The notes beneath the pieces are model-generated. The model searched no databases, was not told the DNA's origin, and saw nothing but the letters and a program-made list of their open reading frames with translations. Shown in pieces: positions 26,299 through 64,000 of a DNA stretch of 64,000 nt. The position numbers and the translations under genes were made by a program. Source of the DNA: Escherichia phage OLB145; sequence record MH992123.1. One strand, given 5' to 3'. Position 1 is the stretch's first letter; each line of letters begins with the position of its first letter.

Positions 26299-26373
26299 GA
26301 TGGTGTAGCTCAGTGGTAGAGCAGTTGGCTGTTAACCAACTGGTCGATGGTTCGAATCCATCCACCATCGCCA
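26299..26373 (+). tRNA. tRNA-Asn (anticodon GTT)
   Basis: Perfect 7-bp acceptor stem GATGGTG/CACCATC, anticodon loop CTGTTAA, T-arm GATGG-TTCGAAT-CCATC, encoded CCA. Confidence 0.85.
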
Positions 26374-26378
26374 AATTT

Positions 26379-26468
26379 GGAAGGTTGTCAGAGAGGCCGA
26401 TTGTACCTGACTTGAAATCAGGAGGCGCAGAGATGCACCCGAAGGTTCGAATCCTTCACCTTCCACCA
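26379..26468 (+). tRNA. tRNA-Ser (anticodon TGA), class II with long variable arm
   Basis: Acceptor GGAAGGT/ACCTTCC, anticodon stem CCTGA/TCAGG with loop CTTGAAA, T-arm GAAGG-TTCGAAT-CCTTC, encoded CCA. Confidence 0.8.
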
Positions 26469-26472
26469 AATT

Positions 26473-26548
26473 GCTGGTTTAGCTCAGTTGGTAGAGCAAT
26501 TGCCTTGTAAGCAATGGGTCAATGGTTCAAGTCCATTAACCAGCACCA
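26473..26548 (+). tRNA. tRNA-Thr (anticodon TGT)
   Basis: Acceptor GCTGGTT/AACCAGC, anticodon stem ATTGC/GCAAT with loop CTTGTAA, T-arm AATGG-TTCAAGT-CCATT, encoded CCA. Confidence 0.8.
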
Positions 26549-26555
26549 ATACAGG

Positions 26556-26637
26556 TTATTAGTGAACACACTATGGAACCTCCCAGCTTCCTCCAGATGT
26601 ACGGCAATACATTAGCTGGTAGTGTGTTCACTGATAG
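26556..26637 (+). repeat. long imperfect hairpin (inverted repeat)
   Basis: Perfect 13-bp stem AGTGAACACACTA (26561-26573) / TAGTGTGTTCACT (26620-26632), extended to about 18 bp with G-U pairs; inner stems CCAGCT/AGCTGG and ATGTA/TACAT. Confidence 0.7.
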
Positions 26638-26716
26638 GTTGTACTATCACAGTCCAGACAATATCTGCGTGACTTAAAAAAACAGATGGAGCCAGGTGGA
26701 ATCCCTGGCAATTAAT

Positions 26717-60464: not shown

Positions 60465-61427
60465 TCACACAATATATGAAGAGAGTGGGTTAACACTTCC
60501 AGTATCATCACCATCATCCCACAATGGGTCACCTGATGTATTAACTGGAACCATACCTGCTTGTGGTTTCCACGGGTTCAGGTAGCCAAGCATTGAAATG
60601 GTATCAATACAGTCATCCTTACCTTTAAGACCATTGATAGTGGCTAAACGAATTTGCCCCATAAAGAGTGTCATGATTGGGCTATCTTTCATTTCAGCAG
60701 GAAAATACATCTTACCAGCTTTGAACCAGGGAACCACGAGGTTAAACCTCGATAGCTTACTGGTTACAGGATGAATACCCGGTTGGCCCCCACGACTGGA
60801 TGCAAAGTTAAAGAACACATTACGGTTAAGCATTTCCTTCTGAAGAAGAGAAATAAAACCACCTTGCTGTCCAGTAGTTTCTACACCAACTTGTTGTGGT
60901 TGGTATTCCTGAACCAGACGGAATAAGTCATCAAAGTTCTTATCCATAGTTTGACGGCAAGCAATACCATCTACCCAGAACCAGTCACCATTAGAACCAT
61001 ATGCCCATACTGATATTACAGAGTAGTCAGATACCTGCTTCTCACTGGTAGCAAAGTCAGTGGTGATATAGAAGTTATAACAAGAACGGAGACGTAATAG
61101 CTGCGTGCGGGAATACCATTTAATCTCTGAATCTTGAATCAGACGTTCATCTTCAGAACTGATACGTAACATCAATTCCTGATAAAAGGATGCCAGCTTA
61201 CCTGTCTTCAATGCCATCTGGTATTGGTCATTGATGTAGTCATAGGAGAAACGGTCTTCCCAAGCACCTTGAAATTCTTCTCGCGTACATGGGAATTTCT
61301 CACATACAGGCCATACGTTGACATCCCAAGCACCAGATTCAACTGCTTCAATAAGAATATCTTCCTTATTAAAGGGAGTACCATTAAAGATTACCTTACG
61401 TCTTGTTGGGTCAAGAGCATGGTTCAC
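60465..61427 (-). CDS. terminase large subunit, C-terminal (nuclease) portion, frame-disrupted relative to the ATPase portion
   Basis: Track ORF starts at GTG 61427; this frame is open upstream to a stop at 61479-61481; contains 'VIFNGTPF' (ATPase coupling motif) and an acidic nuclease-like region. Confidence 0.6.
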   Translation of the reverse strand: MNHALDPTRRKVIFNGTPFNKEDILIEAVESGAWDVNVWPVCEKFPCTREEFQGAWEDRFSYDYINDQYQMALKTGKLASFYQELMLRISSEDERLIQDSEIKWYSRTQLLRLRSCYNFYITTDFATSEKQVSDYSVISVWAYGSNGDWFWVDGIACRQTMDKNFDDLFRLVQEYQPQQVGVETTGQQGGFISLLQKEMLNRNVFFNFASSRGGQPGIHPVTSKLSRFNLVVPWFKAGKMYFPAEMKDSPIMTLFMGQIRLATINGLKGKDDCIDTISMLGYLNPWKPQAGMVPVNTSGDPLWDDGDDTGSVNPLSSYIV

Positions 61428-62098
61428 ACCCTTATATACCGTGTCTTTAATGGCTTCATTGATGTACGTGAGCGAGCATCATCATCACTAACTAAGTCAT
61501 CCAGTACGCAAAGAACGGGACGTTTACCAAAAATCTTAGTACCACGAAGACCTGTCTTAGCACCAAACATCTTCACACCAAGACGGTGACCTTCAGCATT
61601 TACAAACTCAAGGTAGTTATCTGTGAAGGTAGCTTTAGGAATCCATTGTTGCAGGAATGGTGAATTGTTGTATCGAAACTCAATGTTCTTACGGGCAGAC
61701 TTAACACCGTTATCCATAGAGTCAGATACATAAATCATTCCTTCTACTTTACCCAAGCTAGGTAGATGCCCAAACACTGCTAAGAACAAAGTAAAGTATT
61801 CCATGAACAGAGTTGTCTTTGCTGCACCACGGAAACATAAGTTAGCAATGTACTGATTCTTACTGGTTATCTTATCCAGCATCTTTAAGTGAACAGGAGG
61901 GGTTTTGTTTGATTCCCCCTCCTTACCATTAACCAGCTTAATAAAGTTAGCAAAGGTCAGTGCAAATTCGGTTGGTATATACGTAGGGGTATTCAGAACG
62001 GAATAGTCCACTTGGTCTAGCCATTCATCCAACTCCTGTTTAATTAGTTCAGACATCAATAATATCCTCGTCTTCTCGAACCAGTGTGGAACCTGCAA
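61424..62098 (-). CDS. terminase large subunit, N-terminal ATPase portion
   Basis: Walker A 'CFRGAAKTT', Walker B 'VLCVLDDLVSDDD'; ends at TGA 61424-61426 in a different frame from the downstream nuclease portion. Confidence 0.6.
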   Translation of the reverse strand: MQVPHWFEKTRILLMSELIKQELDEWLDQVDYSVLNTPTYIPTEFALTFANFIKLVNGKEGESNKTPPVHLKMLDKITSKNQYIANLCFRGAAKTTLFMEYFTLFLAVFGHLPSLGKVEGMIYVSDSMDNGVKSARKNIEFRYNNSPFLQQWIPKATFTDNYLEFVNAEGHRLGVKMFGAKTGLRGTKIFGKRPVLCVLDDLVSDDDARSRTSMKPLKTRYIRV

Positions 62099-62741
62099 TT
62101 ACTTTAGTAGGTGTACCAGCTTCAATAGCTGCTTTCTGAGCTTCAGCCAACTGGGTTAGTGTGTTCTTGAGTTCAGTCAATCCAGAGTTTTCTCTCAAAT
62201 CCAGATTGATATTAGTAACAGCATCCTTCGGTTTCTGGAGGTGAGTAAGGATAGAGTTGGCAGCATCACACTGTACCTTCTCACTGGTAGCATTCTTCAT
62301 GAGCCATGCCTGATGGTTCAATGCTTCCTGAAACAAATCCTGATTAACAATCCATACTGGAATCAGTGATTGTTCCATAATGAGGTTTACTAACTTACCT
62401 CTATGGTAAGCAGATACATAAGCAGAGATGTCCTTCTCACTGGTTCCCCTTGCTACTAATTCAGCTTGTCTGTTGGGGAATGTTTTGAAGTAAGCATCTT
62501 TATTGCTATACCCCATGTGTTTGTAAGTAACATATTGAACAGCATTAAGATAATCCTGGGTCTTAAACTTCCCATCCTTCATCACCCCAGCATAAGTCAC
62601 AAAGTTATTTCTAATTTGCTCTGCTGCTGTCTGGTCTTGGGTCACATTGTTAATCATGTTTACCAGTTGGTCAGTAACACTGCTTTTAAACTGGGGAGGC
62701 AATGCAGAAACAATGTCTTTCTTAGTCAGTAGTGTGCTCAT
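62049..62741 (-). CDS. putative terminase small subunit (N4 gp69-like by position)
   Basis: 230 aa, first gene of the - strand late cluster, AGGAAG SD, 3' end overlaps the terminase ATPase gene. Confidence 0.4.
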   Translation of the reverse strand: MSTLLTKKDIVSALPPQFKSSVTDQLVNMINNVTQDQTAAEQIRNNFVTYAGVMKDGKFKTQDYLNAVQYVTYKHMGYSNKDAYFKTFPNRQAELVARGTSEKDISAYVSAYHRGKLVNLIMEQSLIPVWIVNQDLFQEALNHQAWLMKNATSEKVQCDAANSILTHLQKPKDAVTNINLDLRENSGLTELKNTLTQLAEAQKAAIEAGTPTKVIAGSTLVREDEDIIDV

Positions 62742-62826
62742 AGTCTTCCTACAAATTATCTAGAGTGAAGAGGATTCTTTTCTTGGGGTTAGCACCCCTT
62801 GCAGAAACCTATACATAGATTTAGAC

Positions 62827-62854
62827 TTTAGACTTTCTTTAGTCTCCTTACAAT
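62827..62854 (+). promoter_or_regulatory. candidate sigma70-type promoter overlapping direct/inverted repeats
   Basis: -35-like TTTAGA (62827-62832), 16-nt spacer, -10-like TACAAT (62849-62854); overlaps tandem TTAGACTT/TAGACTT and the imperfect palindrome TAGACT-TTCTTT-AGTCT. Confidence 0.25.
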
Positions 62855-62901
62855 AGTAAGACAGAGACATGGGGAGCCTATTGCCCAAAGGAACCAGTAA
62901 C

Positions 62902-63210
62902 ATGAGGCTATTCTATAGTTTTGACGGTAATGACCAATGGAATGAGATAGACTTCAGTAAAATAGGTGGAGCTATCCCAGTTGGAGGGGCTATGCCAGGT
63001 GACCATATCTTATGTCACGATGAGGAGTCTTTCCATTACATCTCAGGTATGATGTTAATCAATAACGTCACTGGATTTACTGTACATAAACCTGCACCAG
63101 TACGTGTCATTACCAAGCCTATCGAGGGTCTTGCATTCTTTACAAGAATACCTCAAAGTATCTCTATCAAACGACAGCGTGACGCCATCGAGATGACCGT
63201 GGTTGCTTGA
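62902..63210 (+). CDS. hypothetical protein
   Basis: Track ORF 62869-63210; ATG 62902 has AAGGA upstream. Confidence 0.45.
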   Translation: MRLFYSFDGNDQWNEIDFSKIGGAIPVGGAMPGDHILCHDEESFHYISGMMLINNVTGFTVHKPAPVRVITKPIEGLAFFTRIPQSISIKRQRDAIEMTVVA

Positions 63211-63373
63211 TAAGCCATTGCCCGCCCAGGAGTTGGTGGCGGGAAACAGGGAACTGTTTGAATAACCACTTCAGCTACATTCACCTATCTCCAAGACGCC
63301 TTTGTTATCTGCCATTGGGTGATGAGTAGTATCAGAGAGAACTGATTTAACAAACACACTCGGTATAGGAATT

Positions 63374-63400
63374 GGGAGCCATCTGGCTCCCTTTTTCTTT
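63374..63400 (+). terminator. intrinsic terminator / attenuator hairpin immediately upstream of gene 63421
   Basis: Stem GGGAGCC/GGCTCCC (63374-63380/63385-63391), loop ATCT, then TTTTTCTTTT; AAGGAG SD at 63409-63414. Confidence 0.65.
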
Positions 63401-63420
63401 TATGAACCAAGGAGTTCTAT

Positions 63421-63786
63421 ATGAACATTCGTCCTAATGAAGTCTATGGTATCAACCTAGAATACACTACAAACAAACCTGCTCTATTTCATTGTGGTTC
63501 CACCAATCTATTTCATGCTATGTGTGGTAATACCAAACCCCTTTACTTACCCGAATCGGATGATACCCATGCTCTACTAGGTAACTGGTTCTTAGAAGGT
63601 AAAGACATTAGTACCATTCTTCTTGAACCAAGGAAGAAAGTAGCAATACCTACTAATGCATGGAATAACGAAGTCATTTACTTCCTAGCACCAGAAGGCT
63701 TTGAACCAGTGATAGAACAGAATCACTTTAATCATGCAGTTACTTTCTACTTCAGAGAGACTTCAAAGATACCTGCTTATAAATAA
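63421..63786 (+). CDS. hypothetical protein
   Basis: 121-aa ORF with AAGGAG SD at 6-nt spacing. Confidence 0.55.
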   Translation: MNIRPNEVYGINLEYTTNKPALFHCGSTNLFHAMCGNTKPLYLPESDDTHALLGNWFLEGKDISTILLEPRKKVAIPTNAWNNEVIYFLAPEGFEPVIEQNHFNHAVTFYFRETSKIPAYK

Positions 63787-64000
63787 GGAAAGCTATGTGG
63801 TATATAACAGTTAAAGGTTTATCCGAACCAGTGATGATAGATAGCCTGGCCTTCGTAGAAGTAGGTCATCCTATTCTTATAGAAGGTAAGTTGTATGAAG
63901 TTGTTAGTATTTATAAGAGATAAATAGGAAGTCTATTAGATAGATACCCTATAATTTTTTCTTAGTGAAAATAGTCATAGTTACTTATGAGTTTAGTATT

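What the first reader, a model, noticed from the sequence alone, without database searches (positions are those of the whole stretch)
63211..63420. Structured 210-nt leader with a terminator 20 nt upstream of a start codon (candidate attenuator or small RNA)
After gene 62902-63210 come two back-to-back hairpins (CCCGCC...GGCGGG 63221-63243; AAACAG-GGAA-CTGTTT 63244-63259), then a strong hairpin with T-tract (63374-63400) whose T-run ends 8 nt before the SD of gene 63421. Any promoter for that gene must lie upstream of the terminator, which is the classic layout of an attenuator or riboswitch leader. The segment could equally be a small RNA ending at this terminator.
Basis: seen in the sequence. 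Interest (0 to 1): 0.45.

Follow-up and report, generated by a model that had tools for sequence, protein, structure and literature searches.

The report
Conserved pseudoknotted RNA in N4-like phages
The hairpins and terminator between genes gp70 and gp71 of coliphage N4 belong to one structured, pseudoknotted RNA of about 190 nt that is conserved across many N4-like phages, matches no Rfam family, and looks more like a small RNA gene than a classic attenuator.

Summary
The window is the right 64 kb of a coliphage N4-type genome. The finding is the gp70/gp71 spacer.

Taken alone these features are not beyond chance. One terminator-like site was found against 1.4 expected, and the leader fold has z = -1.7. 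Comparative data change the picture.

- The same element occurs in Enquatrovirus, Kaypoctavirus, Gamaleyavirus, Inbricusvirus, Jwalphavirus, Dongdastvirus and about 20 environmental N4-like contigs.
- The flanking proteins are only 25-36% identical between N4 and the Kaypoctavirus phages.
- The first hairpin's 11-nt loop pairs with a conserved AACC-ACUUC just after the second hairpin, forming an H-type pseudoknot with compensatory changes.
- Next comes a long-range stem (Pa/Pb) with a conserved (U)GA bulge that encloses a conserved CUCC motif.
- An intrinsic terminator follows.
- G·U pairs outnumber A·C mismatches 73 to 7, so the structure is read on the + strand RNA.

No Rfam family matches. 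I found no conserved antiterminator. In distant relatives the RNA is followed by tRNAs or AT-rich DNA, not by an adjacent ORF.

Best reading: a new phage non-coding RNA family whose 3' end is the terminator, with gp71-72 expressed by read-through. A riboswitch-like leader remains a live rival. The function is unknown.

The parts
62902..63210 (+). gp70 CDS (unknown function, PHROG 7213). It lies upstream of the RNA, and its stop codon sits inside the conserved 5' motif.
   Evidence: 98-100% identical to N4 gp70
63208..63216 (+). Conserved 5' motif UGAUAAGCC (consensus YGAU-R-R-G-N-C). In N4 it overlaps the gp70 stop. In Rothmandenesvirinae it lies 60-80 nt past the stop.
   Evidence: sequence comparison; its pairing partner was not identified
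63221..63243 (+). P1 hairpin: CCCGCC 63221-26 / GGCGGG 63238-43 with 11-nt loop L1 (63227-37).
   Evidence: 6 pairs, 100% paired, 2 pairs with double changes
63229..63272 (+). Pseudoknot PK. L1 GGAGU 63229-33 pairs with ACUUC 63268-72, and L1 GGU 63235-37 pairs with ACC 63265-67.
   Evidence: (24 diverse sequences, 93.8% paired versus 79.1% in shuffles, 0 of 500 shuffles as high; slid controls 31-54%; 4 pairs with compensatory changes; a correlated 1-nt insertion C:G in Jwalpha/Axy12)
63244..63259 (+). P2 hairpin AAACAG-GGAA-CUGUUU. Its sequence and length vary between genera and it is absent from the 'minimal' environmental versions.
63263..63274 (+). Invariant UAAC (63263-66), PK 3' strand, and the nearly invariant AG (63273-74).
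   Evidence: (invariant columns)
63274..63330 (+). Long-range stem. Pa is GCUAC 63274-78 / GUAGU 63326-30. Pb is UCACCUA 63281-87 / UGGGUGA 63316-22. A conserved 3' bulge UGA lies at 63323-25. The stem encloses a variable interior that begins with the conserved CUCC at 63289-92.
   Evidence: MFE recovers it in nearly every lineage; Pa 100% and Pb 95% paired versus 51% when partners are permuted, 0 of 2000
63331..63346 (+). P5 hairpin AUCAG-AGAGAA-CUGAU, invariant between N4 and Kaypoctavirus.
63347..63373 (+). Linker UUUAACAAACACACUCGGUAUAGGAAUU, strongly conserved between N4 and Kaypoctavirus.
63374..63401 (+). Intrinsic terminator: 7-bp GC-rich stem, 4-nt loop, U5CU4. It is the probable 3' end of the RNA.
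   Evidence: annotated as a terminator in phages SPSP, Jura and AL25; the stem covaries in all lineages; hairpin dG -14.9 kcal/mol
63409..63786 (+). SD (63409-14) and CDS of gp71 (63421-63786). gp71 is the first of the gp71-family paralogs that must be expressed by read-through.
62821..62895 (+). Ultra-conserved 75 nt in the gp69/gp70 divergent region, with a sigma70-like TTTAGA-16-TACAAT at 62827-54. It is the probable promoter region of the gp70-RNA transcript, and possibly also of the leftward late operon.

Best explanation
Window 63205-63401 encodes a conserved structured RNA of about 190 nt belonging to a family spread through N4-like phages (Schitoviridae).

Anatomy, shown by covariation:
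- a 5' H-type pseudoknot, in which the P1 loop pairs with AACC-ACUUC, with an optional P2 hairpin inserted;
- an invariant UAAC...AG;
- a stem (Pa/Pb) with a conserved 3' (U)GA bulge that closes a loop or junction carrying an exposed CUCC(U) motif;
- a linker and a strong intrinsic terminator.

Inferred mechanism. The RNA is made by transcription from the conserved promoter region upstream of gp70. In N4 it is therefore the 3' part of the gp70 transcript. It ends at the terminator, which gives a stable non-coding RNA. The pseudoknot and terminator act as structural end-caps. The functional surface is probably the conserved single-stranded elements (the CUCCU loop and the GA bulge), used to bind a protein or a purine-rich, Shine-Dalgarno-like RNA.

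gp71-72 have no room for a promoter of their own, so they are expressed only from polymerases that read through the terminator. On this reading the terminator sets the ratio of RNA plus gp70 to gp71-72 and is not a regulated switch.
For: Identity of the locus: N4 gp70/gp71 spacer.

Conservation beyond the flanking genes:
- Long stretches of invariant columns (runs of up to about 20 nt) are shared by N4 and the Kaypoctavirus phages, while gp71 is about 25% and gp70 about 36% identical in protein.
- The indels are 2, 5, 8 and 13 nt long, so the region is not coding.

Structure:
- P1+PK+P2: 98.5% of cells paired versus 85% in shuffles, 9 pairs with double changes.
- PK alone on 24 diverse sequences: 93.8% versus 79.1%, 0 of 500 shuffles as high.
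- Pa, Pb and terminator: 95-100% paired versus 51-58% with permuted partners, 0 of 2000.
- RNAalifold on the G7C clade: 50 pairs, 8 compensatory.
- Single-sequence MFE folds recover Pa/Pb and the terminator in 11 lineages.
- G·U 73 versus A·C 7 in helices, so the pairing is on the + strand RNA.

Independence from gp71:
- In L090 the RNA and terminator are followed by tRNA-Asn and tRNA-Ile.
- In L059 and in about 10 IMG/VR lineages they are followed by AT-rich or promoter-like sequence with no adjacent ORF, and L059 and L090 have no gp70-like ORF upstream.

No conserved antiterminator was found.

Substitutions among close N4 relatives that fall in helices preserve pairing (U·G to C·G in PK and Pb, C·G to U·G in the terminator).
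Against: - There are no transcript data. The 5' end of the RNA is unknown.
- In N4 no sigma70-like promoter lies between 62855 and 63421, so a discrete RNA would need processing, or would simply be the gp70 3' UTR.
- In six genera the terminator abuts the SD of a gp71-family gene, which is the layout expected of a leader.
- No trans target was found for the sequence flanking the CUCC motif in the window.
- The helix tables for Pa, Pb and the terminator were curated by hand, so they lean towards pairing.
- The function itself is inferred, not shown.
Confidence: 0.5

Rival explanations
1. Cis-acting leader (riboswitch-like, or a protein- or RNA-responsive attenuator). The pseudoknot/Pa-Pb domain senses a signal and modulates termination at 63374-63401, which controls read-through into gp71-72 and the tandem gp71-family paralogs.
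For: - The terminator ends 7 nt before the gp71 SD and no promoter can fit between them.
- The same abutting layout occurs in Kaypoctavirus, Gamaleyavirus, Inbricus-, Jwalpha- and Dongdastvirus.
- The downstream genes are always gp71-family paralogs in these genera.
- The size and pseudoknotted fold resemble known aptamers.
Against: - There is no conserved alternative pairing. In folds truncated before the 3' arm, the terminator 5' arm pairs with a different partner in each lineage.
- Duplex energies of the 5' flank or the CUCC motif with the 5' arm are no better than shuffles (z about 0).
- The terminator hairpins are strong (-15 to -22 kcal/mol).
- In L059, L090 and many IMG/VR lineages no gene abuts the terminator, and L090 has tRNAs there.
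- No Rfam riboswitch matches.
Confidence: 0.25
2. RNA polymerase-modifying (processive antitermination) RNA in the manner of HK022 put or Bacillus EAR. The folded RNA acts in cis on the polymerase that made it, so that only correctly modified polymerases pass the adjacent terminator and any later ones.
For: - A structured RNA lies immediately upstream of a strong terminator that downstream genes must pass.
- Established knowledge: N4 late transcription uses host RNA polymerase (PMC4496689).
- Two adjacent stem-loops at the 5' end resemble the put layout in outline.
Against: - There is no sequence or structure match to any Rfam family.
- P2 is dispensable in many lineages.
- Lineages with nothing to antiterminate downstream.
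- Which polymerase transcribes the region is unknown.
Confidence: 0.07
3. A new self-cleaving ribozyme or processing element that cuts the gp70-gp71 transcript.
For: A compact pseudoknot plus stem, with a few invariant unpaired nucleotides (UAAC, AG, GA bulge, CUCC), is the kind of architecture small ribozymes have. Established knowledge: small ribozymes are common in phages.
Against: No match to hammerhead, twister, pistol, hatchet or HDV models even at E = 10. Nothing identifies a cleavage site.
Confidence: 0.05
4. A DNA-level element near the genome end (replication origin, packaging signal or cruciform) rather than an RNA.
For: - The element lies 0.6-2 kb from the right end or terminal repeat in N4, G7C and Axy13, next to the terminase genes.
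- Established knowledge: N4 uses DNA hairpins as vRNAP promoters (PMC4496689).
- AT-rich DNA follows the element in some lineages.
Against: - G·U pairs (73) far outnumber A·C (7) in the helices. This is strand-specific and meaningless for duplex DNA.
- Pseudoknot covariation.
- A canonical hairpin plus U-run terminator follows in every lineage.
- The hairpins do not fit the vRNAP promoter form of a 5-7 bp stem with a 3-nt loop.
Confidence: 0.05
5. Nothing special: an ordinary gp70 terminator preceded by chance hairpins, or an unannotated small ORF.
For: The single-sequence statistics are weak. Some records annotate small minus-strand ORFs here.
Against: Conservation far above that of the flanking genes, covariation in five helices, indels that are not multiples of three, and presence in lineages lacking gp70.
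Confidence: 0.02

Closest known systems
Riboswitch or attenuator leaders built on H-type pseudoknots with a terminator expression platform (e.g. SAM-II/preQ1-II-type aptamers; comparison from general knowledge)
   Same: A GC-rich hairpin whose loop pairs downstream, an A-rich strand crossing the first stem, an intrinsic terminator directly before the ribosome-binding site of the next gene, and a size of 100-250 nt.
   Different: No Rfam model matches. No conserved antiterminator was found. The downstream gene is not conserved, or is absent, in distant lineages. No ligand is known.
Terminator-ended and 3'UTR-derived bacterial small RNAs (e.g. CpxQ, SroC; general knowledge)
   Same: It lies at the 3' end of an mRNA (gp70 in N4), ends in a strong hairpin plus U-tract, and has a conserved single-stranded C/U-rich motif (CUCCU) that could act as a seed against Shine-Dalgarno-like sequences.
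   Different: It is far more elaborately folded (pseudoknot plus bulged stem or multi-helix junction) than typical seed-type sRNAs. No target was found. The 5' end or processing site is unknown.
Phage T4 gene 32 leader pseudoknot (translational operator; mentioned in PMC10690425)
   Same: A phage-encoded H-type pseudoknot upstream of a gene. It is an example of a protein-binding regulatory pseudoknot that is also absent from Rfam.
   Different: The T4 element is a 5' leader without a terminator and is tied to one gene. The N4-type RNA carries its own terminator and occurs without an adjacent gene.
sRNA1-3 of the N4-like Pseudomonas phage LUZ7 (ONT-cappable-seq, PMC9163698)
   Same: Short non-coding transcripts under 250 nt, ended by terminators, in an intergenic gap of a schitovirus. 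They show that such phages make abundant small RNAs late in infection.
   Different: They occupy a different genomic position (orf69/70, beside the vRNAP gene). There is no hit with the covariance model and no recognisable motif. LUZ7 has no gap after its gp69-like gene.
HK022 put RNA / Bacillus EAR (processive antitermination RNAs; general knowledge)
   Same: A structured RNA placed upstream of terminators that downstream genes must pass, possibly acting on host RNA polymerase.
   Different: No similarity was detected. The activity is untested. The element also occurs where there is nothing downstream to read through.

Membership tests
Terminator/antiterminator attenuator or riboswitch | An intrinsic terminator lies between the promoter and the regulated ORF. 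| tested here: met
   Terminator 63374-63401; SD 63409; no promoter-like site between 62855 and 63421.
Terminator/antiterminator attenuator or riboswitch | A conserved, mutually exclusive antiterminator pairing involves the terminator 5' arm. | tested here: not met
   Truncated folds give a different partner in each lineage. Duplex energies of the 5' flank and of the CUCC motif with the 5' arm have z about 0 versus shuffles in 10 of 11 lineages.
Terminator/antiterminator attenuator or riboswitch | A conserved structured sensor domain lies upstream of the terminator. | tested here: met
   P1/PK/P2 and Pa/Pb are supported by covariation.
Terminator/antiterminator attenuator or riboswitch | The element is consistently associated with the same downstream gene or pathway. 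| tested here: not met
   gp71-family genes follow in six genera. In other lineages tRNAs, AT-rich DNA or nothing adjacent follows.
Terminator/antiterminator attenuator or riboswitch | Ligand- or effector-dependent change in termination. | not testable with these tools
   Needs in vitro transcription, in-line probing or reporters.
Any described RNA family (Rfam 15) | A score at or near a family's gathering threshold. | tested here: not met
   Only tRNAs pass in the window. Nothing relevant at E <= 10 in 62700-64000, nor at E <= 1 in nine homologous loci.
H-type RNA pseudoknot | The hairpin loop base-pairs with sequence 3' of the hairpin, with covariation. | tested here: met
   L1 63229-37 pairs with 63265-72. 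93.8% paired versus 79.1% in shuffles; 4 pairs with double changes; correlated insertion.
Stand-alone or 3'UTR-derived small RNA | A discrete transcript with a defined 3' end at an intrinsic terminator. | not testable with these tools
   A terminator is present in every lineage, but no RNA-end data are available.
Stand-alone or 3'UTR-derived small RNA | An own promoter or a processing site defines the 5' end. | tested here: inconclusive
   No sigma70-like promoter inside gp70 in N4. In L059 a TATAAA-like box sits just upstream of the conserved 5' motif (read by eye). Which polymerase is used is unknown.
Stand-alone or 3'UTR-derived small RNA | Occurs independently of a particular neighbouring ORF. 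| tested here: met
   Present without gp70 upstream and without an adjacent ORF downstream in L059, L090 and many IMG/VR loci.
Recoding (frameshift or read-through) pseudoknot | A slippery site or leaky stop 5-9 nt upstream, and an extended reading frame. | tested here: not met
   The gp70 UGA is followed in frame by UAA, and no slippery heptamer is present. In Rothmandenesvirinae the pseudoknot lies 60-80 nt past the stop. Some lineages have no upstream ORF.
N4 vRNAP hairpin promoter | A 5-7 bp stem with a 3-nt loop, centred at -11 in a conserved GC-rich heptamer (PMC4496689). | tested here: not met
   The loops are 11 nt (P1) and 4 nt (P2, terminator).

The most novel reading that the evidence does not exclude
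The element is a previously undescribed class of functional RNA. It is shared by a large part of the Schitoviridae, including the 60-year-old model phage N4, and sits beside the terminase genes near the right genome end. On the most novel reading it is either a new riboswitch or protein-sensing RNA that gates transcription running towards the terminal repeat, or an RNA cofactor for a genome-end process (replication initiation or packaging), and not an ordinary base-pairing sRNA.
Probability: 0.15. Interest if true: 0.85.

Novelty: new member of a known kind. Interest (0 to 1): 0.62.

Why it matters
N4 is a classic model for phage transcription: three RNA polymerases, hairpin promoters, and single-strand binding proteins acting as activators. 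Its short rightward gene cluster at the right end has no assigned function or transcription class.

A deeply conserved, pseudoknotted RNA in that cluster gives a concrete, testable handle on this region. It is present from coliphages to Achromobacter and Pseudomonas phages and to environmental contigs. It adds a well-supported candidate to the short list of phage-encoded structured RNAs.

Many N4-like phages are being developed for therapy, so knowing whether this RNA controls gp71-family (probably host-interaction) genes, or acts on the host, has practical interest.

If it proves to be only a stable 3' UTR with a leaky terminator, the result is still useful for annotation. The 'hypothetical' minus-strand ORFs called across it in several records are spurious.

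Tried and rejected
1. Rfam at gathering and permissive thresholds, on the window and on nine homologous loci: nothing but tRNAs and terminator-driven noise.
2. Small ORF on either strand: rejected, because the indels are 2, 5, 8 and 13 nt and no ORF is conserved.
3. vRNAP hairpin promoter: the loop sizes are wrong.
4. Sigma70 promoter inside the conserved 3' block: the spacing is not conserved (2-nt indel) and the scan finds none.
5. Antiterminator formed by the CUCCUU motif, or by the 5' flank, with the terminator 5' arm. It looked attractive by eye, but duplex energies are no better than shuffles and the truncated folds disagree between lineages.
6. Pairing of the CUCC motif with the gp71 SD: only the trivial CUCC:GGAG 4 bp in most lineages (by eye).
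7. Trans target of the CUCC flank within the window: no enrichment.
8. Kink-turn or box C/D-like reading of GUGAUGA...CUGA, and hammerhead-like CUGAUGA: neither is supported by the pairing pattern or by Rfam.
9. Mimicry of the 16S rRNA 3' end (GUAAC...CUCCUUA): an intriguing resemblance in a few lineages, but the order of elements differs. I dropped it.
10. Homology with the LUZ7 sRNA region: none.
11. The exact-pattern scan of IMG/VR returned only close relatives and the degenerate-pattern scan only N4 itself. These homologs were found only with the covariance model and a hand-written descriptor.
12. The literature holds no N4 transcriptome and no description of this RNA. A catalogue of about 10,000 candidate viral structured RNAs (PMC10690425) may contain it, but its supplementary data are not held.

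Full report
**What the window is.** The last 2 kb of the window are 99.8% identical to Escherichia phage vB_EcoP_3HA13 and 98.8% identical to coliphage N4. In N4 coordinates the finding is the spacer between gp70 (window 62902-63210) and gp71 (63421-63786). Both genes are rightward and of unknown function. The small-terminase-like gp69 (62049-62741) and the large terminase gp68 are transcribed leftward from the same divergent region. The window ends at the right end of the genome.

**Checking the observation.**
- P1: CCCGCC 63221-26 / GGCGGG 63238-43.
- P2: AAACAG-GGAA-CTGTTT, 63244-59.
- Terminator: GGGAGCC-ATCT-GGCTCCC 63374-91, followed by T5CT4 to 63401.
- SD AAGGAG 63409-14 and ATG 63421.

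On the single sequence this is not statistically remarkable. The terminator scan finds one site where shuffles give 1.4. The 221-nt fold has z = -1.69.

**Conservation.**
- A sensitive blastn of the spacer finds the close N4 relatives and also ten Klebsiella Kaypoctavirus phages, in which only about 80-95 nt just upstream of gp71 matches.
- These phages keep the same gene order: gp69-like leftward, gp70-like rightward, a 230-256 nt spacer, then gp71-like.
- The spacers align with long invariant blocks.
- The flanking proteins have diverged to about 25% (gp71) and about 36% (gp70) identity.
- The indels are 2, 5, 8 and 13 nt long, which excludes a conserved ORF on either strand.
- The same layout, a spacer of 200-260 nt ending in a terminator that abuts the next gene's SD, is found in Gamaleyavirus (G7C, phi G17, F22, PhAPEC7), the Jgk1 type, Inbricusvirus, Jwalphavirus and Dongdastvirus.

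**Structure, 5' domain.** Laying the sequences side by side shows that the 11-12-nt loop of P1 is complementary to the conserved AAC(C/U)(G)-NCUNC that follows P2, and that the two sides covary.

| Lineage | Loop : partner |
|---|---|
| N4 | GGAGU:ACUUC and GGU:ACC |
| Kaypoctavirus | GGAGA:UCUUC |
| G7C | GUAGA:UCUAC and AGU:ACU |
| Inbricus | GCGGA:UCCGC |
| Jwalpha / Axy12 | GUAG:CUAC and CGGU:ACCG (a correlated one-base insertion on both sides) |

Counts on the 30-sequence alignment A6 for P1, the pseudoknot and P2:
- 98.5% of cells paired versus 85.0% in shuffles (0 of 500 as high);
- 9 pairs with changes on both sides;
- slid controls 32-57%.

Counts on 24 sequences that include distant environmental lineages, pseudoknot alone:
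- 93.8% paired versus 79.1% (0 of 500);
- slid controls 31-54%;
- four positions with compensatory changes, for example UA 13 / CG 7 / GU 3 / GC 1.

In the window it pairs 63229-33 with 63268-72 and 63235-37 with 63265-67.

**Structure, 3' domain.**
- Clade-wise RNAalifold and single-sequence MFE folds independently give a long-range stem after the invariant AG. In N4 this is Pa GCUAC 63274-78 / GUAGU 63326-30 and Pb UCACCUA 63281-87 / UGGGUGA 63316-22.
- A conserved purine bulge (UGA, GA, GAA or AGA) lies on the 3' side in most lineages (none in L090).
- The enclosed loop or multi-helix junction begins with, or contains, a conserved CUCC(U) (N4 63289-92).
- The stem sequences differ in almost every lineage yet stay complementary. 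There are 8 distinct Pa helices at 100% paired and 8 distinct Pb helices at 95% paired, against 51% when 3' strands are permuted among lineages (0 of 2000).
- The terminator stems behave the same way: 99% versus 58%.
- In the G7C/Jgk1 clade the tool finds 50 pairs, 8 of them with compensatory changes, in Pb, P3, P4 and the terminator.
- Over all hand-tabulated helices there are 824 Watson-Crick, 73 G·U, 7 A·C and 14 other cells. That asymmetry is expected for an RNA read from the + strand, not for duplex DNA or the opposite strand.
- Caveat: the Pa, Pb and terminator tables were curated by eye and so lean towards pairing.

**Distribution.**
- nhmmer with the 5' domain found only the genera above.
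- A covariance model of the 5' domain (R1) and a hand-written descriptor recovered the element in metagenomic and IMG/VR N4-like contigs fetched through their gp69 homologs. The descriptor is specific in its strict form: it gave one hit, the true one, in both strands of the 64-kb window. The recovered loci are L059, L066, L072, L090 and about 20 of 61 distant IMG/VR loci.
- These are 'minimal' versions of about 100-150 nt without P2. They have a 4-5-bp P1 with a 10-nt loop, UAAC, the pseudoknot 3' strand, AG, and one bulged stem whose loop carries CUCCU, followed by an intrinsic terminator.
- The element always lies on the strand opposite gp69.
- LUZ7 (Migulavirinae) lacks it, and its published sRNA locus is unrelated.
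- No Rfam family matches in any lineage.

**Leader or RNA gene.** The leader reading predicts a conserved terminator/antiterminator switch and a constant downstream gene. Neither prediction holds.
- Folding each RNA truncated before the terminator's 3' arm pairs the 5' arm with a different partner in each lineage.
- The two candidate antiterminators I saw by eye are no better than composition-matched shuffles. They were the CUCCUU motif, or the 5' flank, pairing with the G-rich base of the terminator.
- The terminator hairpins are strong, -15 to -22 kcal/mol.
- In L090 the RNA is followed by tRNA-Asn and tRNA-Ile.
- In L059 it is followed by 170 nt of AT-rich DNA.
- In many IMG/VR lineages it is followed by a recurrent promoter-like AAGUUAUAUCUAAG-type motif or by AT-rich DNA, with no adjacent ORF.
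- L059 and L090 have no gp70-like ORF upstream.

Against this, in six genera the terminator does abut a gp71-family gene, and the downstream genes there are tandem paralogs of one family. A regulatory role in those phages therefore cannot be excluded.

**Most likely mechanism.**
- *Shown:* a conserved, pseudoknotted RNA structure on the + strand ending in an intrinsic terminator, and the absence of a promoter for gp71.
- *Inferred:* transcription starts in the ultra-conserved divergent region upstream of gp70. That region is 75 nt, 92% identical between N4 and Pseudomonas/Achromobacter phages, and contains TTTAGA-16-TACAAT. The transcript ends mostly at 63401 and yields a stable structured RNA, either as the gp70 3' UTR or as a processed species. 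The conserved unpaired elements (CUCCU, the GA bulge, UAAC) are the functional surface. gp71-72 are made from read-through.

I put 0.9 on 'conserved functional RNA structure', about 0.5 on 'acts as a discrete ncRNA with a constitutive terminator', and about 0.25 on 'regulated leader'.

**What is known.** The N4 review (PMC4496689) places early and middle transcripts on the left half and late, host-RNAP transcripts leftward on the right half. It does not mention the rightward gp70-72 unit. I found no N4 transcriptome. The LUZ7 ONT-cappable-seq study shows that schitoviruses make abundant terminator-ended small RNAs, but at another locus. On the evidence available this is a new family of a known kind of thing, a phage-encoded structured small RNA or leader. 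I do not claim that it is categorically new.

Noticed in passing
window 62821-62895 (also L019 1404-1478, L038, L039, L009): A 75-nt stretch of the gp69/gp70 divergent region is 92% identical between N4 and Pseudomonas phage inbricus / Achromobacter phage Axy13. That is far above anything around it. It holds tandem TTAGACTTTAG repeats, a sigma70-like TTTAGA-16-TACAAT, a hairpin GUCUC-CUUAC-AAUA-GUAAG-ACA-GAGAC that keeps pairing through G·U changes in KP8 and JWAlpha, and a CCTATTG box. The TAGACTTTAGNC motif is unique in the window (14 hits with 2 mismatches versus 24 expected). Read on the minus strand it gives TAAAGT -10-like boxes that could belong to the leftward late (terminase) promoter.
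   Followed up: partly
window about 61456 (gp68, minus strand; ORFs 60465-61427 and 61424-62098): Relative to N4, the window has a 1-nt deletion (GGCTT-CAT versus GCTTCCAT). It splits the large-terminase gene gp68 into two overlapping ORFs, and translation at the N4 coordinates gives 13 stops. This is either a sequencing or assembly error in the source record or a genuine frameshift.
   Followed up: partly
window 63421-63923; L016 1969-2962; L038 2060-3079; L039 2071-2779: The genes downstream of the RNA (N4 gp71; G7C gp71, gp71.1, gp71.2; JWAlpha 88-90; Axy12 39-40; inbricus 40) are tandem, fast-diverging paralogs. They share an LLP(D/E)S-x-x-x-H-x-(I/L)-x-G-x-x-x-L motif. gp70 has a similar GD-x-I-x-x-H-D-E-E...G-x-x-L segment and may be a distant member.
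   Followed up: partly
L145, L161, L159, L152, L174, L181 (40-100 nt after the RNA's terminator): In several environmental N4-like contigs a recurrent motif of the form (C)UCUAAGUUAUAUCUAAG / AAACUUAUAUCUAAU follows the terminator. It may be a phage promoter that starts the next transcription unit. Its reverse complement resembles the ACTTTAG box upstream of gp70.
   Followed up: no
L090 586-660 and 757-832 (minus strand): In one metagenomic N4-like contig the RNA sits directly upstream of two tRNA genes (Ile-GAT, Asn-GTT) on the same strand, which forms a small RNA-gene cluster.
   Followed up: no
window 26299-26975: Four tRNA genes lie in a cluster on the + strand (Rfam tRNA scores 50-78 bits).
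   Followed up: no
L003 2888-3061, L005 773-961, L008 810-905: Several Klebsiella phage records annotate small 'hypothetical protein' ORFs across the RNA, on either strand. These ORFs are not conserved between relatives and are probably spurious.
   Followed up: partly
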